Assembly: GCA_000004985.1 (NCBI GenBank)
Contig: GG738845.1
Source of the DNA: Naegleria gruberi
Lineage: Eukaryota
DNA length: 64,000 nt
Strand: one strand, 5' to 3'
This document shows, piece by piece, positions 28,729 to 61,477 of the stretch. How positions within the stretch are numbered: the first letter of the stretch is position 1; each line of letters opens with the position of its first letter. The position numbers and the translations under genes were made by a program. The notes under the pieces were generated by a model that searched no databases, was not told the origin of the DNA, and was given only the letters and a program-made list of their open reading frames with translations.

Positions 28729-28801
28729 CGCCCACCGTGGGGGTCGAACCCACGACCACAAGGTTAAGAGCCTTGCGCTCTACCGACTGAGCTAGACGGG
28801 C
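28729..28801 (-). tRNA. tRNA-Lys (anticodon CTT)
   Basis: The reverse complement reads GCCCGTC TA GCTCAGTCGGTAGAGC G CAAGG CTCTTAA CCTTG TGGTC GTGGG TTCGACC CCCAC GGTGGGC G. It has a cloverleaf with D-loop, T-loop GTTCGA and anticodon loop CT-CTT-AA. A T-rich run follows downstream on the minus strand. Confidence 0.9.
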
Positions 28802-38997: not shown

Positions 38998-41586
38998 ATG
39001 CCTGCAGGAGCCTGGATTATGAATAAGCTTTATACCTTGGGAAATGGATTTTACGACATGACCATGACCAAGCAATCGGATCGTGTAAAATATAAATACG
39101 AAAAGAAGATGAAACAAGTTGAAAAGTTTGTTAGTGAAGATGGTGCCATCAAATCTCACTCGATCGATCAAAAGAAAGTGATCATCACGTACGTATTTGT
39201 TTGTTTGATTAGTCACTTACGTTTAACAGCTTCGACAATTCTCGTTTGACTTTGCGTTGTATTGACAATATTGTTTGGAAGGTTTCATTCATGCCAAAAG
39301 AGTCGGTTGAATAGTAAGTACTGATAGTTAAAATAATATTAAATTTGAGAACACGATCCATTCAATCAATTAAATTATAGTCCATCACTAGTAGTTTCCG
39401 ATGATGCTCTTAATTTTGTAAATATTATTGTTGATGAGGAGAATGAAGATTTTATTACATTCAAACCAGCTGACAGTGCATTGACCAAACTCAAACTCAA
39501 CAAGAAGAATCTTTCCATTGATATCCTGACACAATTTACCAATGACCAATATACTACTGCTTTCAGTAATATCAAGGTTGCAACCAGACCAAAGGATGAA
39601 CAAGCAACTAATATTTCCTTTGGATATAATGTTTCAACTGTAAAGAGTGTTTCAAATGATTGGTTTGGTCTGGGAGAAAAGTCCAACTCTGTCAAGAAGA
39701 ATGGTAAAAAATACTTGTTCTGGAATTGGGATTCATTTGCTTATCAGAGTGAAACTGATCCACTTTATCAAAGCATTCCTTTCGGTATTGTCTCATCTAA
39801 ATTTGAAATTGATCAAGGAAAAACAGAGAGAAGATTTAATGGTATCTTTATTGACAATTATGGTATGCAACAATGGGATTTAACTTCAGAAGAACATTTT
39901 TCCGCCAATCTTGAAAGCTTCCCATGTAATGTTTACTTTATGGCTAATAATGCCAAGACACCATTCAATATTTCAAAGACCTATGAACAATTGACTGGTG
40001 CCAATCCAATGGTTCCATTGTGGGTTTTAGGTTATCATCAATGTAGATGGTCCTACTATCCAGATACTCAAGTCAAGGAAATTGCTCAAGAATTCCTCGA
40101 TCGTGACATTCCTTGTGATGTCATTTATTTGGACATTGATTATATGGATGGTTATAGAGATTTTACATGGAGTAAGACTGATTTCCCAAATCCAAGAGAA
40201 TTACTTAAATGGCTTCACGAAAGAAAATTCAAAGTGGTCACAATTTTAGACCCAGGTGTCAAGGTTGATTCCAATTATGATGTCTACAAGACTGGGGTTG
40301 AAGGAAATCATTTCTGTGCCTATCCTAACGGTAAACTCTATGAAGGTGTTGTTTGGCCTGGTGCTACTCACATGCCTTCCTATACTTCTGAACCAGTTAG
40401 AAAGTGGTGGGCTGATTGGTATAAGGGACTCATTGAAGATGGTGTTGATGGTTTCTGGAATGACATGAACTGTCCATCAGTTAAAGTCAATCCAATAGAA
40501 GCTGGTACCATGGATGACAATGTTTTACAAGTTATGGATGCACCTTATCCAAGTCCACAAATGCACAAGGATATTCACAACTTTTATGGTAGTTCCATGG
40601 CTATTGCAAGTAGAGAGGGTATTGAAAAATTCCAAAGACCACTCAATAGAAGATCATTCCTCTTTGCCCGTGCTTGTTTTGCAGGTATTCAAAAACATGC
40701 TGGATCTTGGAGTGGTGACAATATGTCTACATTTGAACATTTAGCAATTTCTTTGAGATTATTAATGGGACAATCAATTTGTGGTCAACTCATGGTTGGT
40801 GCTGATATTGGTGGATTCAGATGGAATTGTTTCCCTGAATTGTATGCACGTTGGATTGCATTTGGTTCCATCTTTTATCCTTATTGTAGATCTCACACTG
40901 ACAAGTTCACTATTCAACAAGAACCATGGTCTTTTGGTGAACAAGTCGAAGCCATCTCAAAGAAGTTTATCAAACTCAGATATCAATTAATGCCATACTT
41001 GTACACAGCCTCTGTTCTCCACAGTAAGAGATCAATGCCAATGATTAGACCACTATTCTATGATTTCTCAAGCGATGAAGAATGTTACAATCAAGAATGG
41101 TTAGATACACAAGGTATGATTGGTAATGCTCTTATGGTGGCTCCAATCTTACATGAAAAACAAACTTCCAGAAAGGTCTACTTGCCTAAACTTGAAGAAG
41201 AAAAGTGGTACGACTTTTTCAATCCAGCCAATTCATATGAAGGTGGACAAGTTATCACTGTTGAAGCTCCTTTGGATCATTTACCAGTTTTTGTTAAGGG
41301 AGGTTCAGTCATTCCAATGAGACAAACTCATGCTCAATCAGTTTATGATTTACATTTGGTTGACTTGACTTTCAAATCTTTCGGAAGTATTGTTACCTCA
41401 CAACAAAACTACCTCTACTTGGATGATGGTATCAGTTTGGATTATGAAAATGGATTGTATGGTTTCTACCAAATTGAAGATGCTAATGGTACCCTCAAAT
41501 TATTGGAAGGTAATGGTTTCCCAACACGCTTGGAGATTGGAAAGGACTTTGAAAATCTTGAACAGTTCACTGCCAAATTCTATTAA
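38998..41586 (+). CDS. glycoside hydrolase family 31 alpha-glucosidase (multi-exon; 5' exon assignment uncertain)
   Basis: The main exon (about 39381-41586) contains the GH31 catalytic nucleophile region DGFWNDMNCPS and IHNFYGSSMA, plus DVIYLDIDYMDGYRDFTW, typical of GH31 (glucosidase II-like). Upstream small exons at 38998-39193 and about 39262-39316 are bounded by GTACGT and GTAAGT...ATTATAG introns. Whether 38998 is the real start is unproven. Confidence 0.8.
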
Positions 41587-42307: not shown

Positions 42308-43282
42308 ATGAAAGAGCTGACCCTTAGCGATACTCCATCTATTGGATACAATAATCTTGTCGTGGACTCCAAGACTGATGTTATGGCCTACGTTTCAAAT
42401 GGTCAAATTGTTGCCAAGCCTTTGAAGGAATTTATTACAAACGGAAAGGTAGATGATAATACTGTAATTCAAAATTTGTCGGATTATGAAGTAAAGAATG
42501 TTGCTCTATGTATGGACGGAAAATGTATTGCAGCAACTTGCGAAAAGGGAGTGTTGGTAGGTAGTAGATGTCCTTCAAGTTCTCAATATTTTCATATGAT
42601 ACAATGATGATCATTTTAGTTTTATGAAGCTAAATCATTCTCCCTCTTATATTTCTACAAAATTGATGGAGAAATTACATTTACTTTTACTGCTCTTGCT
42701 GGAAGTGGAACTAAACTCTATGCAGGTGATACCAAGGGAAACTTATCGGTATTTACTCTCAATTCTCAAGATTCAATCATGTTGGAGAGCTGTAAGAATA
42801 TTTCCCTTTTTGAAATTACATCTGTAGTCTTCAATGGAGATCATGTTTGTGTGGGAACTGCTAATGGTGACGTTTTAATTATGAACTCAAAATGTGAAAC
42901 TATTAAGTGTCACAAGAATAAGGTAGAAGCTTTGGAATATCCATGTTCAAGCTTGAATATTGTTGGAAATGTTCTAATCTCAGCCTTTGCAAGTGGACAT
43001 GTTAGAATTTATGACCTTGTTTCTGGAAATAAGACAGCAGAACTTGGAGCTCACTCAAAGAGTGTCACTGCTCTTGCATCAAAGAGTAAGGGAGGTGAAA
43101 TTGTTTTCGTTACTGTATCTGAGGATTGTTCAGTGTTTGTTTGGAGTTACAATAACAAGATTTCAGCTGTCAAGGGAGATAGAATTAAGGATTCCATGAT
43201 TGTTGGAGTTCAATTTGTTGATGAAAATCGTCTCATGTTGACATGTTTCGAAAAGAAGGATTGTTTCTTAATGGATTTGTAA
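42308..43282 (+). CDS. hypothetical WD/beta-propeller-like protein, at least 3 exons
   Basis: ORFs 42308-42607 and 42779-43282 plus an open segment at about 42640-42780 (IDGEITFTFTALAGSGTKLYAGDTKGNLSVF) are joined by GTAGGT...AG introns. WD-like motifs: GHVRIYD, SEDCSVFVW. Confidence 0.4.
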
Positions 43283-43420
43283 TTTTAAATAGTACTAATG
43301 CAAGTATTGAAATAAACACAACGAGAATGTGTTTTTGTAATATGATCTTCAATATGTACCAATTGGTAGATCTCCAGATGTTGTTCTAGAAGAATCAATT
43401 CCAATTTTTAGAAGAAAAAA

Positions 43421-45718
43421 ATGCAACCAAACCACTTTTACCCCAACAATAATGCAGGTTTTGGTTTTCATCACCAACCACCAATTCCAATTCCATCATC
43501 ATCTGGTATGATTTATAATCCACAACCTGTGGCTTCTCTTCACAATGACCTTCCGACATCATCACTGATGGTCAATCATTCTCCTCGTAATGTATCACCT
43601 CCACCTTCTTCCATTCCGAATCATGCTCATCAATTTAATTCTTTATCATCACCTCATCCGATATCGATCAATTTAAAACAATCATCAGAGACAATAATGA
43701 TGGACAGTATTAAACTAAACCAATATGAAAATACAATTTATTTAAACCAATTGAGTTATTCAAAAGACTTTGAAATACATCGGAGGAAAATTACAAGTGA
43801 TCTGGAACAAATCAAACTCTTAAATTCAGAAGTGACCCAACTCAAGTCTCAAATTAAAACCCTAAACGAGAAACGAAAGGAATTTCTCAAATCGCTCTAT
43901 GGAAATCATTCAATCATGAATGATGATGACGAGGAGGACGAAGATGAATTGGATATGGAAACTCTATTGATGGAATATGAATATAATGTAAATAATGACA
44001 TGTACACTCCCCATTACCTACCTAAATCAATACCTCAAACCTTATTGAATAACAATATAATGACGAGTAATCAGAGCAATGCTAATACTATGATTAATAA
44101 TAATGGCACAGCTGGTAATAGTAATGGTCACCAAATACCAAATAATGTAAATATGAATCATCAACATCCTCCTCCTCATATCCATTCGAATTATCAATCA
44201 TCATCTTCACATTTAAATTCAAAGTCATTGAGTGCTGTTCCAACTATATCAACAACAGCAAATAAGATATCACAGATAGAAGAATTAGAACAAGTAGAGC
44301 AAAGAGAAATTTCTAGTACCAATCACCCCCACCATTGGAATCATCCTCCTCCTGTTAATAATACCACATCCACTGCTCAACAAACAATAGCCAGTACAAC
44401 TAATACACCTAGGAAACAACATAATCAACAACAAACACCCTCAAATATCATACCACCTCAACAGCACGATGATGCTACAAGTGTCTTTACCACAACCAGT
44501 AATAATTCCAATAACTTTAGAGTTACTACACCATCCAAATCAAAACCTACAGCAACAACAACACCATCTGCCAACAATACCTCCAAGCATAACCAAAGTT
44601 TGAATGAATCTAGGATGGATGATAATGTTTCTACAATCTCACTAAATACATCAAGAACAAGCATTAACAAATCTAAGAATAAGACTAATCTTATTGTTGA
44701 ATCAAAGAAGAGGAAGGAAATTGTGGATATTGATGATAGTGATGACGAAGATGCCAAGTTTTCTCTATTCAAGAGTCCTAAAAAACCAAAACAAGATAAA
44801 ACAGTTAAGGAACTCATAAAACTCAAAAAGAGACAAGAAATTGAAAAACAAAAGAAATTACATTTGATGAATAGATTCGATGATAGGGAATATATCGTCA
44901 TTACAAATAATTCAACACCACCCCAAGTTGAAAAGATTGAATTAAAAGCTGAACAAGAATCAACTCCAAAATCAAAGCAAACACCAACAGAAGAGGAAAT
45001 TGAAGAAGAGGTTATCAAGTCACCAACTATTCACCAACAGGTAGTGAACTTGGTCGAAGAGGAAAACTCTATTGGAGACGACATTCTCTACTACTCCCTC
45101 CTGAGTGGTTGTGTGAAAAAAGATGAGCCTAATAATGATGTCATCCAACCTTCCGAAAAGAAAAAGTCAAGCTCACCACCTCATGCCAATTATAATGGTG
45201 GTGGGGTTAGCTCATCAAATCATTCCAATGAAAAAACAACTAAGAATGTTGCTGTAAATATTCCACCCCAAAAAGATAGTGAACTAAGCCAGTCCGAAAG
45301 TTCTAGCAGTGAGGAAGATGATACCTATGGAAAGTATTTCAAATCAACTAGGAAAAAGAAAAAATCTAAAAAACCAGGCATTGAATGTGAAGACTGCAGA
45401 GAATTCTATTCAGCATGCTTTCCTGATGACGAGGAGAAAAGAAATCGAATTATCAGAGAGTGTTCAAGGCACAGACATGGCCACCATCACCCCAATAAGA
45501 GTCCCTCTTCTCTCAACCAATCTCCAATAATTGTTGGAGCTCACCAAGCACCCTCATCAACACCACATCAACAATCAACTTCTTCCACTGCTGCCAAACC
45601 TTCTGTGAATTTTGACTCAGTTCCTGGCACACCTCCTGAATATTGGAATTTAGGTGATGGTCCAACTGATACATTTGTAGAAAATGAAGATGAAACGCAA
45701 CTTTCCAAGAGTTATTAA
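43421..45718 (+). CDS. CtIP/Sae2/Ctp1/Com1-family DNA end-resection factor
   Basis: The C-terminus CEDCREFYSACFPDDEEKRNRIIRECSRHRHG...GTPPEYWNLG matches the conserved CtIP C-terminal domain (human [45 protein letters not shown]). The N-terminal coiled-coil segment (LEQIKLLNSEVTQLKSQIKTLNEKRKEF) is consistent with the tetramerisation helix. The middle region is long and low-complexity (N/Q/S/T/P). Confidence 0.75.
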   Translation: MQPNHFYPNNNAGFGFHHQPPIPIPSSSGMIYNPQPVASLHNDLPTSSLMVNHSPRNVSPPPSSIPNHAHQFNSLSSPHPISINLKQSSETIMMDSIKLNQYENTIYLNQLSYSKDFEIHRRKITSDLEQIKLLNSEVTQLKSQIKTLNEKRKEFLKSLYGNHSIMNDDDEEDEDELDMETLLMEYEYNVNNDMYTPHYLPKSIPQTLLNNNIMTSNQSNANTMINNNGTAGNSNGHQIPNNVNMNHQHPPPHIHSNYQSSSSHLNSKSLSAVPTISTTANKISQIEELEQVEQREISSTNHPHHWNHPPPVNNTTSTAQQTIASTTNTPRKQHNQQQTPSNIIPPQQHDDATSVFTTTSNNSNNFRVTTPSKSKPTATTTPSANNTSKHNQSLNESRMDDNVSTISLNTSRTSINKSKNKTNLIVESKKRKEIVDIDDSDDEDAKFSLFKSPKKPKQDKTVKELIKLKKRQEIEKQKKLHLMNRFDDREYIVITNNSTPPQVEKIELKAEQESTPKSKQTPTEEEIEEEVIKSPTIHQQVVNLVEEENSIGDDILYYSLLSGCVKKDEPNNDVIQPSEKKKSSSPPHANYNGGGVSSSNHSNEKTTKNVAVNIPPQKDSELSQSESSSSEEDDTYGKYFKSTRKKKKSKKPGIECEDCREFYSACFPDDEEKRNRIIRECSRHRHGHHHPNKSPSSLNQSPIIVGAHQAPSSTPHQQSTSSTAAKPSVNFDSVPGTPPEYWNLGDGPTDTFVENEDETQLSKSY

Positions 45719-45746
45719 GCAATAGGAAAAAAATGAATAAATAATT

Positions 45747-48503
45747 TTATTCCAACAATGCAAAACAATACAATACTGGTGACTGATTTGAATATCTGGG
45801 AGTGGCATTTGAGGTTCTTCTTGATATGTTTTGATGGTAGCTACTGAGACTATTTTGATGATTTGAAGAAAAGTGCAAATTATTTGAATTGGCACCTGAG
45901 TTTGGATATGCAGATGCAAAGTCCATCTGAGGTTGGAAAACATCAAAGGCTTCGTAGGCCTTTGTAATGAGTTTGGTTTCATAGCTTTGAGGAATATCTT
46001 GTTTCAACTCTTCCATTTGATGAGTCATGAAATTGTAAACCTGAGATTTACACTCTTTTGAAATTGGCGTCAATCTTACATCCAAGTAATGAAGTTGAGA
46101 TCGCTCAAATTCAAAATTGATACTTGTTAAATTTTTACAAGAACTAATTTCCAATCTGAATAATTTGGAGAGCACCAGAGAATCTGAATATTCTTCCTCT
46201 TTGTGTTGACTTTTCTGAATAAGGCTACTAAGGTTGCTCATGTTATTGTTTCCACTGTGGTTAATGTTCTGTAGAGAACATGTACCTATTGGAAGATGTA
46301 AATTTCTAAGTTCATTACATGAATTCAATTTGAGAGTCAATAGCTCCAAGCTTGTAACTTGATTCAGAACGCCATTCCAAAGATCCTCATCATTAACACT
46401 CGAATAACTTAAATCTAAATGTAATAATCCACTACATTTGATAACTGGATGAGTCACATTTGAACAGTATCTCATCACTAGAGTTTCCAAATGTTTCATT
46501 TCAATGTGTGGCTTGACGAGTTTTTTACATTGTGAAACATTGAGTGTTTGTAAAACTCCAAAGAGTTGAGATAACATTTCTTCAAGTGTAGAATCTGTAA
46601 TACATGTATTGGTTAAATCCAAGTGACACAAGTTTTGACCCATCGTAAGGTAAATATTATTATTCATATTACCATACTCTATCATTTCATTCTTGAAATG
46701 AATTTGTGTCAAATTTCTATTATTTGAAAAGTCAATAATTTTCACTGTAGTATTATCTGATAGAGAAACATTTCTATATCTGAAAAGAGGAATACTTGGT
46801 GTCTTTAAATTACAATCTACAATTTCTAAATTTTCTAAAAATCTACAATTCTTAACAATTACATTCAAACTTTGATCATCAAGTTCATAAAATGAATGCA
46901 ATCTCAAGTTGACTAGATTATTAAAACGGATAATCAAATTTGTCAAATCCTCAATAATATCAATAGCCACTGACTTTTTCAAGAAGAATACATTTTCATT
47001 ACAATACACCATATCTAATGATTTAAATGACTGATAAATAATCTTGTACCACCATTTACATGTAAGTGCTAATATAGGAAATATTTCTTCAAAAATACAA
47101 TATTGAAATATTCTCAAGAATAAATCATTTGGTAATTGATAAATCTTTGAGGTTTGATCCAAATCCAATTTCAGAAATTCAATCACACTATCAAATGATA
47201 AAAAATCTGATTCCTTCACAGTATTTGTAAGGTATGAATCCAGATCAGAATTACCCTTGCACATTAAATCCAAATACGTTTGAAGTGACTCTTTTCTTTT
47301 TTGTACATTTTCAGGTTTAAAATTACCTATCAAGATTTTTGGTGGAAGTTTTGGCAGTTCCAAGTCTTTGGAAATTTCACAATTTTTCAATTTAGTTCTA
47401 TGCTCTTTCAGGAGTGATTTGTGTAATTTACTGAATTGAGAGTATCTCTTCTCTATGCACCATGAACGAGAGAAATTATTTCCCTTTCTAACTCGTAACA
47501 AGTATATCAAGTGTGCACCCTTTGTCATTTCATCATTATTATTCCTTCTACCTCCTCCGGGTGATAATGGTTCTTCAATGGGAATAGATGAATTATTGTA
47601 AGTATTTGTATAATTATTATAATTGTTATAATTGTTATTATAGTTATTATTATTGTAATTGTTGAAATTATTAGAATAATTATTGTTGGTATTGAAAATC
47701 ATTGGATTAGAAGAAACAACATTCGGAGTGCTTGGTTTTAAATTCTTCGATAATTGATTTTGATATTGAGAATATGGCATTTGAATATTCATTGAAGCAT
47801 CACAATATATAATATCAATAATATCAACAGTAGTATGTCTTTGTTGCTGATTTGCATTTTGATCAGCATTTGGTGATAGAGCATAATTATTGTAATAATT
47901 ATCATTAATTGTTGGTGCACTGCTATAGGATGTTATATTACTTGTTGGACTGGTGGAATCTTGCAAAGTATAACTGCTAGTTCCGACTCCACTTTTCAGA
48001 TAACAATCAACAAGATTTTCATTGATGAAATTGGAATTATTTCGTTGAAGTGTTTGTCTTCTCTTTCGTAGAAATTTAGAAGGTGAAGGTAAAATTGATG
48101 TTGATGATTGATTATCCTTGTTATTATTATTTAAATTGTTATTAGAATTAGAACGAGGCAAGAAGAGGGGAGGAATGAGATGAGCAAATAATCCACCTCC
48201 TCCTCCATTGTTGTGTTGATTATGATTGTTAGATGTTGTTGATGATGATGGAGGTATTAATTGATTAGTTGATGAAGTCAATCGTTTGATATCTTGTTGT
48301 AAGAGTGCATTGGAAATTACTTGAGGAGAGGAAACAGGCTGGCTATCTGATCGTTTACGATTGTTAGGATTTTCAATTTGAATGTTAGGTGTTGTTGTTG
48401 TTGTATGGGTAGATGATATTGGCACTCCCGAAGTAGAATGTCTTGTCGATGAGGAGGACGAAGAAGTAGTATTCAACAAGTGGTAATTATTATTGGTACT
48501 CAT
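45747..48503 (-). CDS. PX-domain + F-box + leucine-rich-repeat protein with long Asn/Ser-rich N-terminus
   Basis: PX-like segment RVRKGNNFSRSWCIEKRYSQFSKLHKSLLKEH...LPKLPPK...ENVQKRKESLQTYLDLM. F-box-like LPNDLFLRIFQYC. Then RNI/LRR-type repeats (LxxLxLxxC, NLxxLxL). N-terminal poly-N, poly-S and NNYNNNYNNY tracts. Confidence 0.65.
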   Translation of the reverse strand: MSTNNNYHLLNTTSSSSSSTRHSTSGVPISSTHTTTTTPNIQIENPNNRKRSDSQPVSSPQVISNALLQQDIKRLTSSTNQLIPPSSSTTSNNHNQHNNGGGGGLFAHLIPPLFLPRSNSNNNLNNNNKDNQSSTSILPSPSKFLRKRRQTLQRNNSNFINENLVDCYLKSGVGTSSYTLQDSTSPTSNITSYSSAPTINDNYYNNYALSPNADQNANQQQRHTTVDIIDIIYCDASMNIQMPYSQYQNQLSKNLKPSTPNVVSSNPMIFNTNNNYSNNFNNYNNNNYNNNYNNYNNYTNTYNNSSIPIEEPLSPGGGRRNNNDEMTKGAHLIYLLRVRKGNNFSRSWCIEKRYSQFSKLHKSLLKEHRTKLKNCEISKDLELPKLPPKILIGNFKPENVQKRKESLQTYLDLMCKGNSDLDSYLTNTVKESDFLSFDSVIEFLKLDLDQTSKIYQLPNDLFLRIFQYCIFEEIFPILALTCKWWYKIIYQSFKSLDMVYCNENVFFLKKSVAIDIIEDLTNLIIRFNNLVNLRLHSFYELDDQSLNVIVKNCRFLENLEIVDCNLKTPSIPLFRYRNVSLSDNTTVKIIDFSNNRNLTQIHFKNEMIEYGNMNNNIYLTMGQNLCHLDLTNTCITDSTLEEMLSQLFGVLQTLNVSQCKKLVKPHIEMKHLETLVMRYCSNVTHPVIKCSGLLHLDLSYSSVNDEDLWNGVLNQVTSLELLTLKLNSCNELRNLHLPIGTCSLQNINHSGNNNMSNLSSLIQKSQHKEEEYSDSLVLSKLFRLEISSCKNLTSINFEFERSQLHYLDVRLTPISKECKSQVYNFMTHQMEELKQDIPQSYETKLITKAYEAFDVFQPQMDFASAYPNSGANSNNLHFSSNHQNSLSSYHQNISRRTSNATPRYSNQSPVLYCFALLE

Positions 48504-49094: not shown

Positions 49095-51366
49095 ATGAAT
49101 GAAGGTGGAGGAGTTAATTCAAATAGTGGATTTGGTGGTATTAGTTCTTGTAATAATAATAACATTAATAATGGAGGAGCCACATCTTCGGGACTGATAA
49201 ATATCAATAAGGAGGATCACAAACTAGTTGTAAATCAGGAACAGCTACTTCTCATGCAAAAGGAATTTTCCAAGCAAAAGATTCATCAAAAGGATTTAAT
49301 TCTTCCCGATTTGAATCATAATTTGCACTTTCACAACTCTCGTCGAGTTTCTGTCATAAAGCAGAGAAGAGTTTCTCTCTCCTCACAATCCTCATCACCA
49401 ACACATTTTGTTCCATTAGAGTTTTCGGAATTAACAAAGAAAAGATCAGCCTCTCCAGTTAAAACACATCAACAACGTTCCTCATCAACCATTTCGTTTA
49501 ATCAGCAGCATCGAAAATTTCAATCCTTTCATTCACCACTAGCATTGGAAGTTTCTAAAAGGTAAGTTTATGCATATTCACATTGCTCTTAATTTGCATG
49601 ATAAAAGAGAGCTTGTCAATAGGAGTGTACCCCTTAAATTAAGCAAACACAGCTCCTCTTTCACAACAAAAAAGGAGGAAGCCACAACTATCAACTCTGC
49701 AACATCTATTATCGAGAATGAAAGTGAGGAATTGTCAGAAGATGATTCAGATTTATTGACTAGTTCCGAAGATGAGCATCACTTTTCTACCTCGTCATCT
49801 GATGGAGAAGAGGAGGAAATTGAAATTCTTGCTCCTGAGGAATCAATTCAAGTTCAGAATAATGAATTGGAAACAAGTGATAGTGCTACAACTCCTTCAA
49901 TACCAGAAGAAATTAATGAGGTTCCATTCATTTCAGAGAATTATCGAGGAAATCTACTATTTGATGCCTCATTCGAATCTGGTAATTTGGACAGAGTGAT
50001 ACGAGTCGATGAGAATGAGTATGATCTCTACATTAGAGGTGATACATTCAGTGGAGGAAAACGAATGTGGTACTATTTCAAAGTTTCCAATGTTAAAAAG
50101 AATCAAAAGGTACTATTCACCGTTACAAATCTATGTAAAGATAAATCTCTCTATAGGAAGGGAATGACACCTCTAGTGTCGAGCACGAGTAGACCTCGAT
50201 GGGAAAGAATTCCTGAAAAACAAGTTTACTATTACAAGAAAACGGCCAAATACAACACCATTGTGAATAATAGTAATTTACTATCATTTGTATTTATATT
50301 TGATAATGAGCAGGATGATTATTACTTTTCCTATTCATTTCCTTATACATATACTGATTTACAAAAGTATCTATTTGTGATTGAGAGTAAGCAATTGAAA
50401 TATTTTCACAGATCTGTGCTGTGTAGAACGACACAGAATAGAAAATTGGATTGTCTCACTATTACTAGTGTTAATAATTGTAAAAATCACCACTATATCA
50501 ATAATGTAAATTTAAACTCTATATTTGAAAACATTCCTCATAACACACCAAGTACATCCACAATGTCCGAATTGACTGACATTTCACCAACGATTCTAAC
50601 ACCACCAAGCATAGCGAAAAACATTGTAATCACCAATGAACTCACCTTAGAAAGTCAAACTAAAAAGAGGATTGTATTTGTCACATGCAGAGTTCATCCA
50701 GGAGAATCACCAGCAAGTTATGTTTGTCATGGATTTATCAGTTTTATTTGCTCAAATCATCCAATTGCAGTTCAATTAAGAGAAATGCTCATTTTCAAAA
50801 TTGTACCCATGTTGAATCCAGATGGGGTAGCTATTGGGAACTATAGATGTTGCAGTATGGGATTTGATCTCAATAGACACTGGCTCAACCCTCAAGAATG
50901 GTCGCACCCAACTATTTACCACGTCAGAAAATACTTGCTTCAACTGAAACATGATCCAAACTTTCAAGTGGACTTTTTCATGGATTTACACTCACACTCT
51001 GGAGCAAATAATGGCTTTATGTATGTTAATTACACCTCGAAAACATCTCCAGATGATCAATTGAGATTCCCAAAATTGTTAAATGCAAGAGCAAGAGAAT
51101 TTTCAATGAATGACACAAAGAGGTGCAGAGATCCTTCAAAGATGGGAGCTTCAAGAAGAGTTCTTGGTCAGGTTTTAAATGTGGCAAAGTATTGTTACAC
51201 CTTGGAGGTTTCATTCTTTGGGTATTCGGCTGGTACAGATGTCCAACCCTCTTCGAAACATGTTCCATTTTCGATAGAGAACTATTTCAACTTGGGGAAG
51301 AATATGTGTTTGGCACTGGCCGATTTTTATGGCATTGAAACCCCTACATCTTCAGAAGATGTTTAA
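49095..51366 (+). CDS. cytosolic carboxypeptidase (M14 family, Nna1/AGBL/CCP-like) with low-complexity N-terminus
   Basis: Exon 1 49095-49561; GTAAGT...ATAAAAG intron 49562-49607 (46 nt); exon 2 49608-51366 in frame. CCP N-domain FESGNL...YDLYIRGDT and M14 core RVHPGESPASYVCHGFISF...NPDG...DLHSHS, with the expected His/Glu zinc ligands. Confidence 0.8.
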
Positions 51367-51512: not shown

Positions 51513-51603
51513 GGTGCGATGGTCGAGTGGTCTAAGACGACACGTTTAGGAGTGATAAATTCCGTGTTCCGCAAGGGCGTGGGTTCAAATCCCACTCGCA
51601 TCA
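51513..51603 (+). tRNA. tRNA-Leu (anticodon TAG) with 11-nt intron at canonical 37/38 position
   Basis: GGTGCGA TG GTC GAGTGGTCTAA GAC G ACACG TTTAGG [agtgataaatt] C CGTGT, then a long variable arm TCCGCAAGGGC, T-arm GTGGG TTCAAAT CCCAC, acceptor TCGCATC and discriminator A, followed by gTTTTTT. The D-loop GAGTGGTCTAAG and anticodon loop TTTAGGC are like known eukaryotic tRNA-Leu(TAG). Confidence 0.85.
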
Positions 51604-57895: not shown

Positions 57896-58759
57896 ATGGC
57901 TCTAAATAATAACCATACCAGTGGTGTGCCTGAATGGGTTGGCAATGTCGACTTGAATAATATGGGATTAGATCAACAGTTCTATTACTTGATTAGATCT
58001 AATTTCTCTGAACTTGAAATTACCACAACAGTTTCAATCTTTTATATTTTCTTTTTATATACAATTCTAAGTTTACCATGGTATTTTATTAAAGTGTTTA
58101 AACCATCCTTCCTATACAAGTATAAACTTCAACAAAAAGAAGAAGAAAAACAAACAGATTGGGGTTGCATTTTACAATTGGTTATTAACCATTTACTCAT
58201 TCTTCCAATGTTATATATGGGTTATCCAGTTCTCAAGTGGGTCGGAGTTAGTTATGATTTGGCTCTTCCATCTTGGTGGGATATGTTGGCACGTTCAATG
58301 ATTTTCCTTGTAGTTGAAGATGCTTGGTTTTATTGGGTCCATCGTTTTATGCACACTGATTTTGGTTACAATTATATTCACAAAATACATCACGAATATC
58401 AAACACCAATAGGATATTGTTCATCTTATGCCAGTTGTGTTGAATTTATAATTTTAGGTATTGGATCATTCATTGGACCATTCCTCTTTGGCTGTCCACA
58501 TATTATGTCATGGTGGGTTTGGATGACTGTTCGTCAAATTGAAGCTATTGATTGTCACACTGGTTTCCATTTCCCTTGGAGTTTGTGTAATTTCCTTCCT
58601 TTCTATTGTGGACCTATTCACCACGACCATCATCACAAAACTTATAATGGAAACTATGCTAGTACTTTCACATGGTGGGATTGGATGTGCGGAACTGATA
58701 AGGGCTATCGTCTCTGGTTGGAAAAGCAAAAGAAGAAACAAGAAAAGAAGGTTGAATAA
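57896..58759 (+). CDS. fatty-acid hydroxylase superfamily enzyme, C-4 methylsterol oxidase (ERG25/SMO)-like
   Basis: Three His boxes in the order expected for ERG25-type enzymes: HRFMH, HKIHHEY, HDHHH. TM helices and a KK-rich C-terminus. Confidence 0.7.
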   Translation: MALNNNHTSGVPEWVGNVDLNNMGLDQQFYYLIRSNFSELEITTTVSIFYIFFLYTILSLPWYFIKVFKPSFLYKYKLQQKEEEKQTDWGCILQLVINHLLILPMLYMGYPVLKWVGVSYDLALPSWWDMLARSMIFLVVEDAWFYWVHRFMHTDFGYNYIHKIHHEYQTPIGYCSSYASCVEFIILGIGSFIGPFLFGCPHIMSWWVWMTVRQIEAIDCHTGFHFPWSLCNFLPFYCGPIHHDHHHKTYNGNYASTFTWWDWMCGTDKGYRLWLEKQKKKQEKKVE

Positions 58760-60553: not shown

Positions 60554-61477
60554 ATGGACTTGTTAAGAGTTTTGGAAATTATTCCATTGCCATCGGCAGC
60601 CACCTGTGAAAGTATACCTTCACTTGTTCAATATATCCATGATGCTGTTTTGGCCACTAATCAAATGGATTTAATATCACAATTTGTTGTCTTGTGGTTT
60701 GCTGTGACCATTGCTGCCACAGTTGGATACTTTGCTGCCACTTCAATTTCCTATATGATTTTCTTTGGTATCTTTAGAGATTATTTCCATCCACCTCATG
60801 AACCACAACCATTCAAGGGACAAGAATGGTTAGAAGCCAAAATGAGTATGATTGCTATTCCATGGTTATCCTTCTTGACCATTCCATTCTTTATTGGTGA
60901 ATTGAAAGGTCATTCTAAACTCTATTGGCAAGCTGAAAATGATCCATTGTGGTACTATGTTGTTGTAGTGAGTGCCTTTATCTTGTTTACTGATATGTGT
61001 ATTTATTGGATCCATCGTTGGGAACATACCTTCCCATTGCTTTACAAGTATATCCACAAACCACATCACAAATGGTTGGTTGTTACTCCATTTGCTGCAT
61101 TTGCTTTCCATCCTTTGGATGGTTGGGCTCAAGCTTTACCATATCACATCTTTGTCTATTTGATTCCTATGAATACCAAATTATACATTTCACTCTTTGT
61201 TGTTGTTCAATTGTGGTCAATTAACATTCATGATGGTGTTGATGCTGTCGGAAGTAGACTTGGATCCTCTGCTAGTCAATATGTCAATGGTTCTCTTCAT
61301 CACTTTATTCATCACACTAGATTTGATTATAACTATGGTCAATACTTTACCATTTGGGATAGAATTATGGGATCTCACTATGATCCAAAACCAGATTTTG
61401 ATACTGGTGATTTTAATTTACCAAAACAAAATTACAATGAAGGAATGCATCCTGCCGATAAGAAGAAATCTAAATAA
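60554..61477 (+). CDS. sterol desaturase family enzyme, C-5 sterol desaturase (ERG3/SC5D)-like
   Basis: His boxes HRWEH, HKPHHKW and HHFIHH in the TM-rich fatty-acid hydroxylase fold. YWIHRWEHTFPLLYKYIHKPHHKW resembles the lathosterol oxidase signature. Confidence 0.7.
   Translation: MDLLRVLEIIPLPSAATCESIPSLVQYIHDAVLATNQMDLISQFVVLWFAVTIAATVGYFAATSISYMIFFGIFRDYFHPPHEPQPFKGQEWLEAKMSMIAIPWLSFLTIPFFIGELKGHSKLYWQAENDPLWYYVVVVSAFILFTDMCIYWIHRWEHTFPLLYKYIHKPHHKWLVVTPFAAFAFHPLDGWAQALPYHIFVYLIPMNTKLYISLFVVVQLWSINIHDGVDAVGSRLGSSASQYVNGSLHHFIHHTRFDYNYGQYFTIWDRIMGSHYDPKPDFDTGDFNLPKQNYNEGMHPADKKKSK

What the first reader, a model, noticed from the sequence alone, without database searches (positions are those of the whole stretch)
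43421..45718. CtIP/Sae2/Ctp1 homolog recognisable only by its C-terminal CxxC-RHR module
The last 70 or so residues match the conserved Sae2/CtIP C-terminal domain, including the C-x-x-C pair, the CSRHR motif and the downstream TPxxxWxxGFP-like stretch. The rest (about 690 aa) is low-complexity apart from one N-terminal coiled coil. This identifies a DNA double-strand-break resection factor in an otherwise unannotatable ORF. The long disordered linker is larger than in yeast Sae2 or S. pombe Ctp1.
Basis: partly seen in the sequence, partly recalled or inferred. Interest (0 to 1): 0.55.

Follow-up and report, generated by a model that had tools for sequence, protein, structure and literature searches.

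The report
Split-domain CtIP homologue in Naegleria
This 765-residue gene of the amoeba Naegleria gruberi is a genuine but divergent member of the CtIP/Ctp1/Sae2 family, which switches on the Mre11-Rad50 nuclease at broken DNA ends; standard domain searches miss it because a floppy spacer of about 45 extra residues splits its short signature domain.

Summary
The window is Naegleria gruberi, not a dictyostelid.

**Why standard searches miss it**
- Pfam SAE2 (PF08573) scores 8.5 bits on the native C-terminus.
- It scores 18.3 bits with the spacer deleted. The cut-off is 19.8.

**Why it is still a family member**
- An exhaustive phmmer search of 1.84 billion proteins with the last 139 aa found four proteins.
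- Three of them pass the SAE2 cut-off. The fourth is the collinear N. lovaniensis orthologue.
- A profile of the two Naegleria sequences matches an independent family profile (hhalign 97.7%, E 2e-12).
- A family HMM built without Naegleria sequences scores the ORF at 41.4 bits (E 1e-10 at proteome scale).
- All invariant family residues are present: C656, C659, C681, SRHR 682-685, T737-P738 (the CDK site) and W742.

- The module covers about the last 125 residues, not 70.
- RHR and the TP loop are 51 residues apart. The distance is 7-10 in 36 other members and 65 in N. lovaniensis.
- The linker contains further conserved islands.

**Verdict:** an expected gene in an unusual split form. Its function is inferred by homology only.

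The parts
43421..45718 (+). Complete single-exon ORF, 765 aa plus stop: the Naegleria gruberi CtIP/Ctp1/Sae2-family protein.
   Evidence: ORF listing. A stop codon lies 9 nt upstream of the ATG, and the upstream same-strand gene ends 138 bp before it. The collinear single-exon orthologue in N. lovaniensis is at L001:10001-12886.
43421..43672 (+). N-terminal leader rich in P, S, N and H (aa 1-84), predicted disordered.
   Evidence: pLDDT about 30-37. Weakly conserved with N. lovaniensis.
43673..43909 (+). Long alpha-helix (aa 85-163). Its C-terminal two-thirds (aa 120-161, nt 43778-43903) form a heptad coiled coil. This is the presumed oligomerisation region.
   Evidence: AlphaFold2 pLDDT 87-95. 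Heptad test. 49% identity over 61 aa to N. lovaniensis by tblastn. The profile matches only generic or designed coiled coils in the PDB, not CtIP or Ctp1 N-terminal structures. No Pfam CtIP_N hit.
44702..44788 (+). Conserved island, aa 428-456. It holds EIVDIDDSDDED (hydrophobic core plus an acidic/Ser tail, resembling a SUMO-interaction or CK2 motif) and FKS452PKK (full CDK consensus S-P-x-K).
   Evidence: Conserved with N. lovaniensis. The motif readings are inference only.
44795..44884 (+). Conserved basic helix, aa 459-488 (KELIKLKKRQEIEKQKKLHLMNRFDD).
   Evidence: pLDDT 85-89. 57% identity to N. lovaniensis over the aa 451-480 window. No significant heptad pattern.
45002..45100 (+). Conserved island, aa 528-560 (EEEVIKS534PTIHQQVV...SIGDDILYYSL). 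It includes a conserved S-P site.
   Evidence: Function unknown.
45326..45376 (+). Basic lead-in to the domain, aa 636-652 (YGKYFKSTRKKKKSKKP). It corresponds to the Y-x-[YF]-x-E-V-V-R-K-K-x-E-R stretch of other members.
   Evidence: Alignments A2 and A3 and the HMM alignment.
45377..45475 (+). C-rich-H sub-module, aa 653-685: G653, C656-x-x-C659, F662, Y663, C681-S-R-H-R685. It folds as a helix-turn-helix.
   Evidence: All invariant and nearly invariant family columns are matched. pLDDT 80-92. hhalign and HMM alignments cover this stretch. Nicolas et al. model this sub-module as the Mre11 anchor.
45476..45628 (+). Spacer, aa 686-736: 51 residues between RHR and T737. It starts His-rich (HGHHH) and continues rich in S, T, P and Q. 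Other members have 7-10 residues here.
   Evidence: Spacing counts. Low pLDDT. It looks coding rather than intronic: GC 0.47 against 0.36 for the ORF, and it is open and a multiple of three in both Naegleria species.
45629..45673 (+). Phospho-loop sub-module, aa 737-751: T737-P-P-E-Y-W742-N-L-G-D-G-P-T749-D-T. T737 aligns with human T847 and yeast S267, the CDK site that contacts Rad50.
   Evidence: T, P and W are invariant in the 24-sequence alignment. Conserved in N. lovaniensis. pLDDT 73-78. Role taken.
45674..45715 (+). Acidic C-terminal tail, aa 752-765. It holds T759-Q760, the only S/T-Q site conserved with N. lovaniensis and a candidate ATM/ATR-type site. It ends in KSY in both species.
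   Evidence: The kinase assignment is inference.

Best explanation
The ORF encodes the Naegleria gruberi orthologue of CtIP/Ctp1/Com1/Sae2, the cofactor that activates the Mre11-Rad50(-Nbs1) endonuclease to start 5' resection of DNA double-strand breaks.

**Shown here**
- The protein has the family architecture: an N-terminal coiled-coil helix, a long disordered middle and a C-terminal signature module.
- It has every invariant residue of that module.

**Inferred from the family**
- The helix at 85-163 oligomerises the protein.
- The C-rich-H element (C656-x-x-C659 ... C681-SRHR685) docks on Mre11 and/or DNA.
- This would restrict resection to the right cell-cycle phase.

**Specific to Naegleria**
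- The two contact elements are directly adjacent in all other members examined.
- Here a flexible spacer of 51 residues (65 in N. lovaniensis) joins them, so they would act as two tethered ligands and not as one rigid unit.
- Conserved islands in the linker probably carry further regulatory or partner-binding sites. They are S452-P-K-K, S534-P, an acidic SIM-like motif and a basic helix at 459-488.
For: - **ORF and motifs:**
- **Exhaustive phmmer.** With the C-terminal 139 aa against 1.84 billion representatives, there are only four hits at E <= 1e-3 for the whole library: 1.7e-17, 7.6e-6, 2.8e-5 and 8e-4. Three pass Pfam SAE2 gathering at 32.6, 39.7 and 46.3 bits against 19.8.
- **Profile search.** A profile including the window sequence retrieves 26 proteins. 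24 carry PF08573, and several are named DNA endonuclease RBBP8 or SAE2/CtIP C-terminus-domain protein.
- **hhalign.** The Naegleria-only profile against an independent 20-member profile gives 97.7% and E 2e-12.
- **Naegleria-free HMM.** 41.4 bits, E 9.7e-11 at Z=15,727. N. lovaniensis gives E 9.7e-10, and the next open frame gives E 2.9.
- **Invariant columns.** All are matched in a 24-sequence alignment.
- **Orthologue.** N. lovaniensis C9374_011867 matches in three collinear blocks, is single-exon, and is named by UniRef as a Ctp1 C-terminal domain protein.
- **Structure.** Confident helix at 85-163 with a heptad pattern, a confident helix-turn-helix at 657-684, and a disordered remainder.
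- **Mechanistic roles.** The roles of the C-rich-H domain, T847/S267 and Rad50 R79/R77 come from Nicolas et al. and Wu-Baer et al..
Against: - Pfam SAE2 does not reach its gathering score. It gives 8.5 bits natively, and only 18.3 against 19.8 with the spacer artificially removed.
- The near-invariant spacing between RHR and the TP site is not kept. A rigid two-point contact modelled on yeast or human may therefore not transfer unchanged.
- The residue at the position of the human ATM/ATR site (T749, 12 residues after T737, as T859 is after T847) is followed by D, not Q.
- The N-terminal helix shows no detectable homology to CtIP or Ctp1 tetramerisation domains.
- Nothing here shows expression, phosphorylation, MRN binding or nuclease activation.
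- The rest of the N. gruberi genome could not be searched for a second, canonical copy.
- The family members in the profiles were collected by searches seeded with the Naegleria sequence. They are therefore the members most like it, although each is independently validated by Pfam or by name.
Confidence: 0.85

Rival explanations
1. The spacer is not protein. It would be an unannotated in-frame intron (candidate 45501-45620, GTCCCT...CAG, 120 nt), and the mature protein would have an almost canonical contiguous domain, with RHR to T about 11 residues apart. The gene would then be an ordinary CtIP homologue with nothing unusual.
For: - An in-frame GT...AG pair exists at that place.
- Two environmental family members (L012, L013) do carry a real GTAAGT...CAG intron exactly at this junction.
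- No transcript data were available.
Against: - Spacer GC is 0.47 in N. gruberi and 0.45 in N. lovaniensis. That is above the GC of the genes themselves (0.36 and 0.38) and far above flanking intergenic DNA (0.18-0.27).
- Both spacers are open and a multiple of three in length. Open frames occur in 9% and 6% of AT-rich windows of the same lengths, so with the length condition the joint chance is about 6e-4.
- The donor GTCCCT is poor.
- The only in-frame GT...AG in N. lovaniensis sits elsewhere and would still leave about 27 residues between the motifs.
- The N. lovaniensis gene model keeps the spacer as coding.
- The spacer's composition, rich in S, T, P, Q and H, matches the rest of the protein's disordered parts.
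Confidence: 0.07
2. The ORF is a diverged paralogue or a relic that keeps the CtIP signature motifs but no longer activates resection. The working CtIP of N. gruberi would be encoded elsewhere.
For: - The spacing that is near-invariant elsewhere is broken.
- N. lovaniensis has even relaxed CSRHR to CARHK.
- The rest of the genome could not be searched.
- The exact protein is absent from the protein collections.
Against: - All invariant residues, including the CDK threonine, are retained in two species that are only 39% identical overall. The N-terminal helix and several linker islands are retained as well, which indicates purifying selection on a full-length protein.
- The exhaustive search with this module found no other Naegleria protein.
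- The family is normally single-copy. This point rests on my own knowledge and was not tested.
Confidence: 0.06
3. The resemblance is coincidental, or reflects an unrelated small Cys/His zinc-binding motif inside a low-complexity protein.
For: - The module is short.
- Pfam SAE2 is below its threshold.
- The protein is compositionally biased.
Against: - The E-values are library-wide or proteome-scaled and significant.
- The match includes non-Cys/His positions: G653, F662, Y663, S682, R683, R685, and P-x-T-P-P-x-Y-W.
- No other Pfam family, PDB sequence or PDB fold matches. SAE2 is the only Pfam hit on the native C-terminus, the best PDB sequence E-value is 0.4, and there are zero Foldseek matches.
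Confidence: 0.02

Closest known systems
Naegleria lovaniensis C9374_011867 (XP_044542952.1, 961 aa). NCBI calls it a hypothetical protein. UniRef calls it 'DNA endonuclease activator Ctp1 C-terminal domain-containing protein'.
   Same: - Orthologue with collinear conserved blocks: N-terminal helix, linker islands, C-rich-H and the TPPxYW loop.
- Both end in KSY.
- Single exon.
- It also has a long spacer between RH(R/K) and the TP site.
   Different: - Only 39% identical overall.
- About 200 residues longer, with an extra N-terminal stretch.
- The spacer is 65 residues instead of 51.
- CARHK replaces CSRHR.
- Neighbouring genes are not syntenic.
Human CtIP / RBBP8 (897 aa) and other metazoan RBBP8
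   Same: - N-terminal coiled coil, long disordered middle and C-terminal 'Sae2-like' module.
- The module holds CxxC, CSRHR, the CDK site T-P (T847 corresponds to T737) and xxFW.
- Comparable overall length.
   Different: - Human has 7 residues between RHR and T847, read as [12 protein letters not shown]. Naegleria has 51.
- Human GFPSTQ carries the ATM/ATR site T859. Naegleria has GDGPTD there and a conserved TQ ten residues further on.
- No Pfam CtIP_N match in Naegleria.
- No FRY (KLHL15) motif after RHR.
- BRCA1, CtBP and Rb-binding motifs were not looked for and are not expected in Naegleria.
Schizosaccharomyces pombe Ctp1 (294 aa, from my own knowledge) and Dictyostelium purpureum DICPUDRAFT_160384 (361 aa)
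   Same: Both have the CxxC...RHR C-terminal domain preceded by a basic stretch and an N-terminal coiled coil. The D. purpureum protein is a direct phmmer hit (E 2.8e-5 library-wide) and passes Pfam SAE2 at 39.7 bits.
   Different: - Both are compact proteins with a contiguous domain.
- According to Nicolas et al., Ctp1 has a hydrophobic residue (I283) instead of the CDK phospho-site and acts independently of CDK. Naegleria keeps T-P.
Saccharomyces cerevisiae Sae2 (345 aa, from my own knowledge)
   Same: Same inferred job. It has a CDK site (S267) in a loop that binds Rad50 R77 and activates Mre11.
   Different: Sae2 lacks the CxxC...RHR C-rich-H domain altogether and has a two-beta-strand globular domain instead. 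In this respect Naegleria is of the CtIP/Ctp1 type, not the Sae2 type.

Membership tests
CtIP/Ctp1/Com1/Sae2 (Pfam PF08573 'SAE2', InterPro Ctp1_C) | Score above Pfam's curated gathering cut-off for PF08573. This is an operational criterion, not a biological one. | tested here: not met
   No hit on the full-length protein. 8.5 bits, E 5.5, on the native C-terminal 138 aa. 18.3 bits against a cut-off of 19.8 after artificial removal of the spacer. The N. lovaniensis orthologue also gives no hit at E <= 1. The failure traces to the insertion plus divergence of the lead-in, and SAE2 is still the only family that hits the native C-terminus.
CtIP/Ctp1/Com1/Sae2 | Statistically significant sequence homology of the C-terminal domain to bona fide members. 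| tested here: met
   Library-wide phmmer E-values of 7.6e-6, 2.8e-5 and 8e-4 to three proteins that pass SAE2 gathering. hhalign 97.7%, E 2e-12. A Naegleria-free family HMM gives 41.4 bits, E 9.7e-11 at Z=15,727.
CtIP/Ctp1 type (C-rich-H domain, Nicolas et al.) | CxxC motif about 18-24 residues upstream of C-S-R-H-R. | tested here: met
   C656-E-D-C659, then 21 residues, then C681-S-R-H-R685. The gap is 18-24 residues in nearly all other members. The columns are invariant or nearly invariant in the 24-sequence alignment.
CtIP/Ctp1/Com1/Sae2 | Conserved CDK site (S/T-P) in the loop following RHR, followed by x-x-[FY]-W (human T847, yeast S267). | tested here: met
   T737-P-P-E-Y-W742. T, P and W are invariant across 24 sequences and conserved in N. 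lovaniensis. Actual phosphorylation cannot be tested with these tools.
CtIP/Ctp1 type | RHR and the TP site directly adjacent, about 7 residues apart. This is an empirical regularity and not part of any formal definition. | tested here: not met
   The distance is 7 residues in 21 of 23 protein hits (8 and 10 in the other two) and 7 in 13 of 13 metagenome loci after splicing of L012 and L013. N. gruberi has 51 and N. lovaniensis has 65. The sample is biased against insertion-bearing members because profile searches collected it.
CtIP/Sae2 | Conserved PI3K-like-kinase (ATM/ATR, Tel1/Mec1) S/T-Q site about 12 residues after the CDK site (human T859, yeast T279). | tested here: inconclusive
   T749 is at the equivalent offset (+12) but is followed by D. 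T759-Q760 lies 10 residues further on. It is the only S/T-Q site conserved between the two Naegleria proteins.
CtIP/Ctp1/Sae2 | N-terminal coiled coil or oligomerisation domain. | tested here: inconclusive
   A confident helix at 85-163 with a heptad register is present and is conserved in N. lovaniensis. No homology to Pfam CtIP_N or to solved CtIP or Ctp1 N-terminal structures was detectable. Oligomeric state was not tested.
CtIP/Ctp1/Com1/Sae2 | Binds Mre11-Rad50(-Nbs1) and stimulates Mre11 endonuclease; required for resection. | not testable with these tools
   This needs biochemistry or genetics. Naegleria Mre11 and Rad50 sequences could not be fetched for complex modelling.

The most novel reading that the evidence does not exclude
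In the Naegleria lineage the two partner-binding elements of the CtIP C-terminal module have been physically uncoupled by a translated, disordered spacer of 51-65 residues. The elements are the Mre11/DNA-anchoring C-rich-H domain and the CDK-phosphorylated Rad50-binding loop.

They sit 7-10 residues apart in the 36 other members examined. If the protein is functional, the fixed spacing is not needed for activating Mre11-Rad50. The two elements would then work as independent tethered ligands. Alternatively, the Naegleria Mre11-Rad50 complex has co-evolved a different geometry.

Either outcome would be a natural experiment bearing on the current AlphaFold-based activation model.
Probability: 0.6. 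Interest if true: 0.45.

Novelty: new member of a known kind. Interest (0 to 1): 0.3.

Why it matters
**Practical value**
- It gives Naegleria gruberi, a heterolobosean far from animals, fungi and plants, a well-supported resection cofactor.
- The exact protein is absent from the searched collections.
- A 47-species survey that included N. gruberi dated RBBP8 to bilaterians.
- A 2026 review could offer only a BLAST hit at E = 0.016 for N. fowleri.
- A reliable identification is useful for work on recombination, meiosis and transgenesis or genome editing in Naegleria, including the pathogen N. fowleri.

**Conceptual value**
- This is modest. The split module shows that the otherwise fixed juxtaposition of the Mre11-anchoring and Rad50-binding elements can be broken in nature.
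- That makes a specific prediction of the current activation model testable.
- It is also a concrete example of a short signature domain that curated HMMs miss because of an internal low-complexity insertion.

Tried and rejected
- **Dictyostelid origin.** This was my first guess from the AT-rich, N/Q-rich sequence. I rejected it because eight window ORFs are identical to N. gruberi NEG-M proteins.
- **Word-indexed homologue search.** They did not even return the N. lovaniensis orthologue, which is a representative in that collection. Absence from those searches therefore means nothing.
- **Exact look-up of the 765-aa protein.** It is not in the collection.
- **Public N. gruberi gene model.** I tried to reach it through neighbouring proteins, but nothing is on record in the gene-position index. 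Whether and how the locus is annotated stays unknown.
- **Synteny with N. lovaniensis.** None within +/-10 kb.
- **Homology of the N-terminal helix to CtIP or Ctp1 tetramerisation domains.** Only generic or designed coiled coils matched. There was no CtIP_N hit.
- **Rival zinc-binding or other family for the C-terminus.** None in Pfam, PDB sequences or PDB folds. The AlphaFold-database fold library was unavailable.
- **Intron reading of the spacer.** Tested and rejected as unlikely.
- **Tandem DNA repeats as the source of the low complexity.** None found in 43000-46000.
- **Literature on Naegleria with Sae2 or CtIP.** Only the weak 2026 table entry turned up.
Full report
**1. What is there**

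The window carries an uninterrupted ORF at exactly the stated coordinates, 43421-45718 on the + strand, 765 aa. A stop codon lies 9 nt upstream of the ATG. The preceding same-strand gene, a WD40 protein, ends 138 bp before it. The next gene, a PX plus F-box-like protein on the minus strand, ends 28 bp after the stop.

The protein is rich in S, N, K, P, T and E. It has only five cysteines, four of them within aa 656-681. It has only two tryptophans, one of them W742.
- C656-E-D-C659;
- C681-S-R-H-R685;
- T737-P-P-E-Y-W742-N-L-G-D-G-P.

No tandem DNA repeats underlie the low complexity.

**2. Organism**

I first took the AT-rich, N/Q-rich sequence (about 32% GC) for a dictyostelid. That was wrong. 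Eight ORFs of the window are identical to Naegleria gruberi NEG-M proteins such as EFC50499, 50500, 50509, 50510, 50511 and 50819, all on one 1.56-Mb scaffold. The exact 765-aa protein is not in the 15-billion-protein collection. I could not retrieve the public gene model for this locus.

**3. Family membership**

Literally, that criterion is met:
- Pfam finds nothing on the whole protein.
- On the C-terminal 138 aa alone, SAE2 (PF08573) is the only family reported, at 8.5 bits and E 5.5.
- An artificial construct lacking the spacer reaches 18.3 bits against a gathering score of 19.8.

Four independent lines show that this is a sensitivity failure and not a true negative.

(a) An exhaustive phmmer search of 1.84 billion cluster representatives with the last 139 aa returned only four proteins at E <= 1e-3 for the whole library.
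- Three of them (E 7.6e-6, 2.8e-5, 8e-4) pass the SAE2 gathering score on their own at 32.6, 39.7 and 46.3 bits.
- One of those three is Dictyostelium purpureum DICPUDRAFT_160384.
- The fourth and best hit (E 1.7e-17) is the N. lovaniensis orthologue.

(b) A profile that included the window sequence retrieved 26 proteins. 24 carry PF08573. Some are named DNA endonuclease RBBP8, from mammals and ants, or SAE2/CtIP C-terminus-domain protein, from a fungus. This result is partly circular, because the profile already contained true members.

(c) To remove that circularity I compared a profile of only the two Naegleria sequences with a profile of 20 independent members. hhalign gave 97.7% probability and E 2e-12 over the stretch from CxxC to CSRHR.

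(d) I built an HMM from 29 family modules with no Naegleria sequence and searched it against all 687 open frames of the window and of the N. lovaniensis locus, with E-values scaled to a 15,727-protein proteome.
- This ORF scored 41.4 bits, E 9.7e-11.
- The N. lovaniensis gene scored E 9.7e-10.
- The next frame scored E 2.9.

In a 24-sequence alignment every invariant column is matched: the first Cys, S-R-H-R, T-P and W. So are the nearly invariant G653, C659 and C681. No other family competes:
- the best PDB sequence match to the module has E 0.4;
- Foldseek against the PDB gives no match at all.

One caveat applies. The family members used in (c) and (d) were gathered by searches seeded with the Naegleria sequence, so they are the relatives most like it. 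Each is nevertheless validated independently by Pfam or by its source name.

**4. Orthologue**

N. lovaniensis C9374_011867 (961 aa) is only 39% identical overall but collinear with the window protein. tblastn of the window ORF against its locus gives three ordered blocks:
- the N-terminal helix, 49% over 61 aa;
- the middle of the protein;
- the C-rich-H region, 65% over 34 aa.

It is a single exon. NCBI calls it hypothetical, and UniRef calls it a Ctp1 C-terminal domain-containing protein. Neighbouring genes differ, so there is no synteny within 10 kb.

**5.

AlphaFold2 on the two-sequence alignment gives these elements:
- one long helix at aa 85-163, pLDDT 87-95;
- a second helix at aa 459-488, pLDDT 85-89;
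- a helix-turn-helix at aa 657-684, pLDDT about 80;
- about 600 residues below pLDDT 50.

With a 24-sequence alignment the C-rich-H element reaches pLDDT 80-92 and the TPPEYW loop reaches 73-78. The stretch between them stays at about 50-60.

Residues 120-161 have a clean heptad register, with L/I/V/M at 75% of a/d positions against 5-10% elsewhere.

Three statements need correcting:
- The module is not the last 70 residues. It runs from about aa 636 to 751.
- The module is bipartite.
- The linker is not featureless. Islands at 428-456, 459-488, 528-560 and 630-652 are conserved with N. lovaniensis at 40-60% identity, against 13-27% in the surrounding segments.

Only three S/T-P sites are conserved between the two species:
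- S452, in FKSPKK, a full S-P-x-K CDK consensus;
- S534;
- T737.

Only one S/T-Q site, T759, is conserved.

**6. The spacer**

In the other 23 family proteins collected, the distance from RH(R/K) to the T of the TP site is 7 residues in 21 cases, 8 in one and 10 in one. In 13 environmental loci it is 7 in all. That count includes L012 and L013, which carry a GTAAGT...CAG intron at exactly this junction and read RHRSRHKPASTPPHYW after splicing. N. gruberi has 51 residues and N. lovaniensis has 65.

Because an intron occurs at this junction elsewhere, I tested whether the Naegleria spacer is an unannotated in-frame intron. The candidate was 45501-45620, GTCCCT...CAG. The evidence is against it:
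- The spacers have higher GC (0.47 and 0.45) than their genes (0.36 and 0.38) and than intergenic DNA (0.18-0.27).
- Both are open and a multiple of three in length. The joint chance is about 6e-4, judged from AT-rich windows of this sequence.
- N. lovaniensis has no equivalent splice pair. Its one in-frame GT...AG would still leave about 27 residues between the motifs.

Transcript data would settle the point.

**7. How it most likely works**

*Shown:* the family architecture and all signature residues.

*Inferred from the family:* Nicolas et al. (bioRxiv 10.1101/2023.08.05.552090) describe the CxxC...RHR 'C-rich-H' domain as an anchor to Mre11 that also places basic residues towards DNA. [quoted passage not shown] That loop carries human T847 and yeast S267 and is phosphorylated by CDK. 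Wu-Baer et al. (PMC10706839) describe the CDK site and the ATM/ATR site as the two hallmark residues of the Sae2-like domain.

By homology, I propose the following:
- The helix at 85-163 oligomerises the Naegleria protein.
- C656/C659/C681/H684 with R683/R685 form the Mre11/DNA-facing element.
- Phospho-T737 with W742 forms the Rad50-facing element.

The spacer means the two elements are tethered and not rigidly coupled.

The ATM/ATR site is not conserved in place, because T749 is followed by D. T759-Q760 is conserved and may substitute. All functional statements are inference. Nothing here shows expression, phosphorylation or MRN binding.

**8. Comparison with what is known, and novelty**

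The protein is of the CtIP/Ctp1 type, with a C-rich-H domain. It is not of the budding-yeast Sae2 type, which lacks that domain. Its length lies within the family range of under 200 to over 900 residues.

The family is known across eukaryotes, and the N. lovaniensis orthologue already carries an automatic Ctp1_C label. This is therefore a new member of a known kind.

What is new is modest. It is a secure identification for N. gruberi and the observation that Naegleria splits the module. The literature is thin on this point:
- No paper in the library links Naegleria with Sae2 in this sense.
- A 2014 survey of 47 species that included N. gruberi dated RBBP8 to bilaterians.
- A 2026 review lists an N. 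fowleri CtIP candidate at BLAST E = 0.016. In the same table the yeast 'CtIP' is YOR195W at E = 0.024. To my knowledge that gene is not SAE2, so the method used there is unreliable for this family.

**9. Verdict**

Confidence that this is a functional CtIP/Ctp1-family resection cofactor is 0.85. Interest is 0.3. It is an expected gene, correctly spotted, with one unusual structural feature worth a targeted experiment.

Noticed in passing
L012:2862-2975 and L013:3120-3240 (metagenome contigs Ga0209652_1003756 and Ga0075467_10005762): Two environmental CtIP-family genes carry a GTAAGT...CAG intron exactly between the RHR motif and the TP phospho-loop. That is the same junction where Naegleria has its translated spacer. 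After splicing, the spacing is the canonical 7 residues.
   Followed up: partly
window 45747-48503 (-): The convergent neighbour encodes a 918-aa protein with a PX domain (49.7 bits) followed by an F-box-like motif (24.1 bits, just under its cut-off of 24.3) and a leucine-rich C-terminal half. Its stop codon lies only 28 bp from the stop of the CtIP gene, so the 3' ends must overlap or nearly abut.
   Followed up: partly
window 42308-43282 (+): A WD40-repeat gene in at least two exons ends 138 bp before the CtIP start codon. Its second piece passes the Pfam WDR54 cut-off (34.0 against 26.6 bits). That leaves a very short promoter and 5' UTR for the CtIP gene.
   Followed up: partly
window 57896-58759 (+) and 60554-61477 (+): Two sterol-pathway genes sit side by side. 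They are C-4 sterol methyl oxidase (EFC50510) and C-5 sterol desaturase (EFC50511), identical to the annotated N. gruberi proteins.
   Followed up: no
window 51513-51603 (+) and 28729-28801 (-): There are two tRNA genes. One is tRNA-Lys(CTT). The other is 91 nt long, passes Rfam's tRNA model (49.7 bits), and is read by ARAGORN with a four-base anticodon, so it probably contains an intron.
   Followed up: no
window 44717-44755 (aa 433-445) and 44768-44785 (aa 450-455): EIVDIDDSDDED has a hydrophobic core followed by an acidic/Ser tail and resembles a phospho-regulated SUMO-interaction or CK2 motif. FKSPKK has the full CDK consensus. Both are conserved in N. lovaniensis. A similar IIIDLDNEE occurs in the D. 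purpureum homologue.
   Followed up: no
L001:12497-12511 (N. lovaniensis aa 833-837): The N. lovaniensis orthologue reads CARHK where the family is otherwise invariant for (C)SRHR, followed by a run of six histidines. The 'RHR' signature is therefore not absolutely fixed in this genus.
   Followed up: no
window 39481-41586 (+) and 49570-51366 (+): The flanking genes are ordinary housekeeping types. They are a GH31 glycosidase (370 bits) and an M14 cytosolic carboxypeptidase-like protein. Nothing in the neighbourhood relates to DNA repair.
   Followed up: no
literature (PMC3969565; PMC13315211): A 2014 DDR-network survey that included N. gruberi states that RBBP8 arose in bilaterians. A 2026 review's table lists YOR195W as the yeast CtIP homologue at E = 0.024. 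Both illustrate how this family is missed or mis-assigned by routine BLAST or orthology pipelines.
   Followed up: partly
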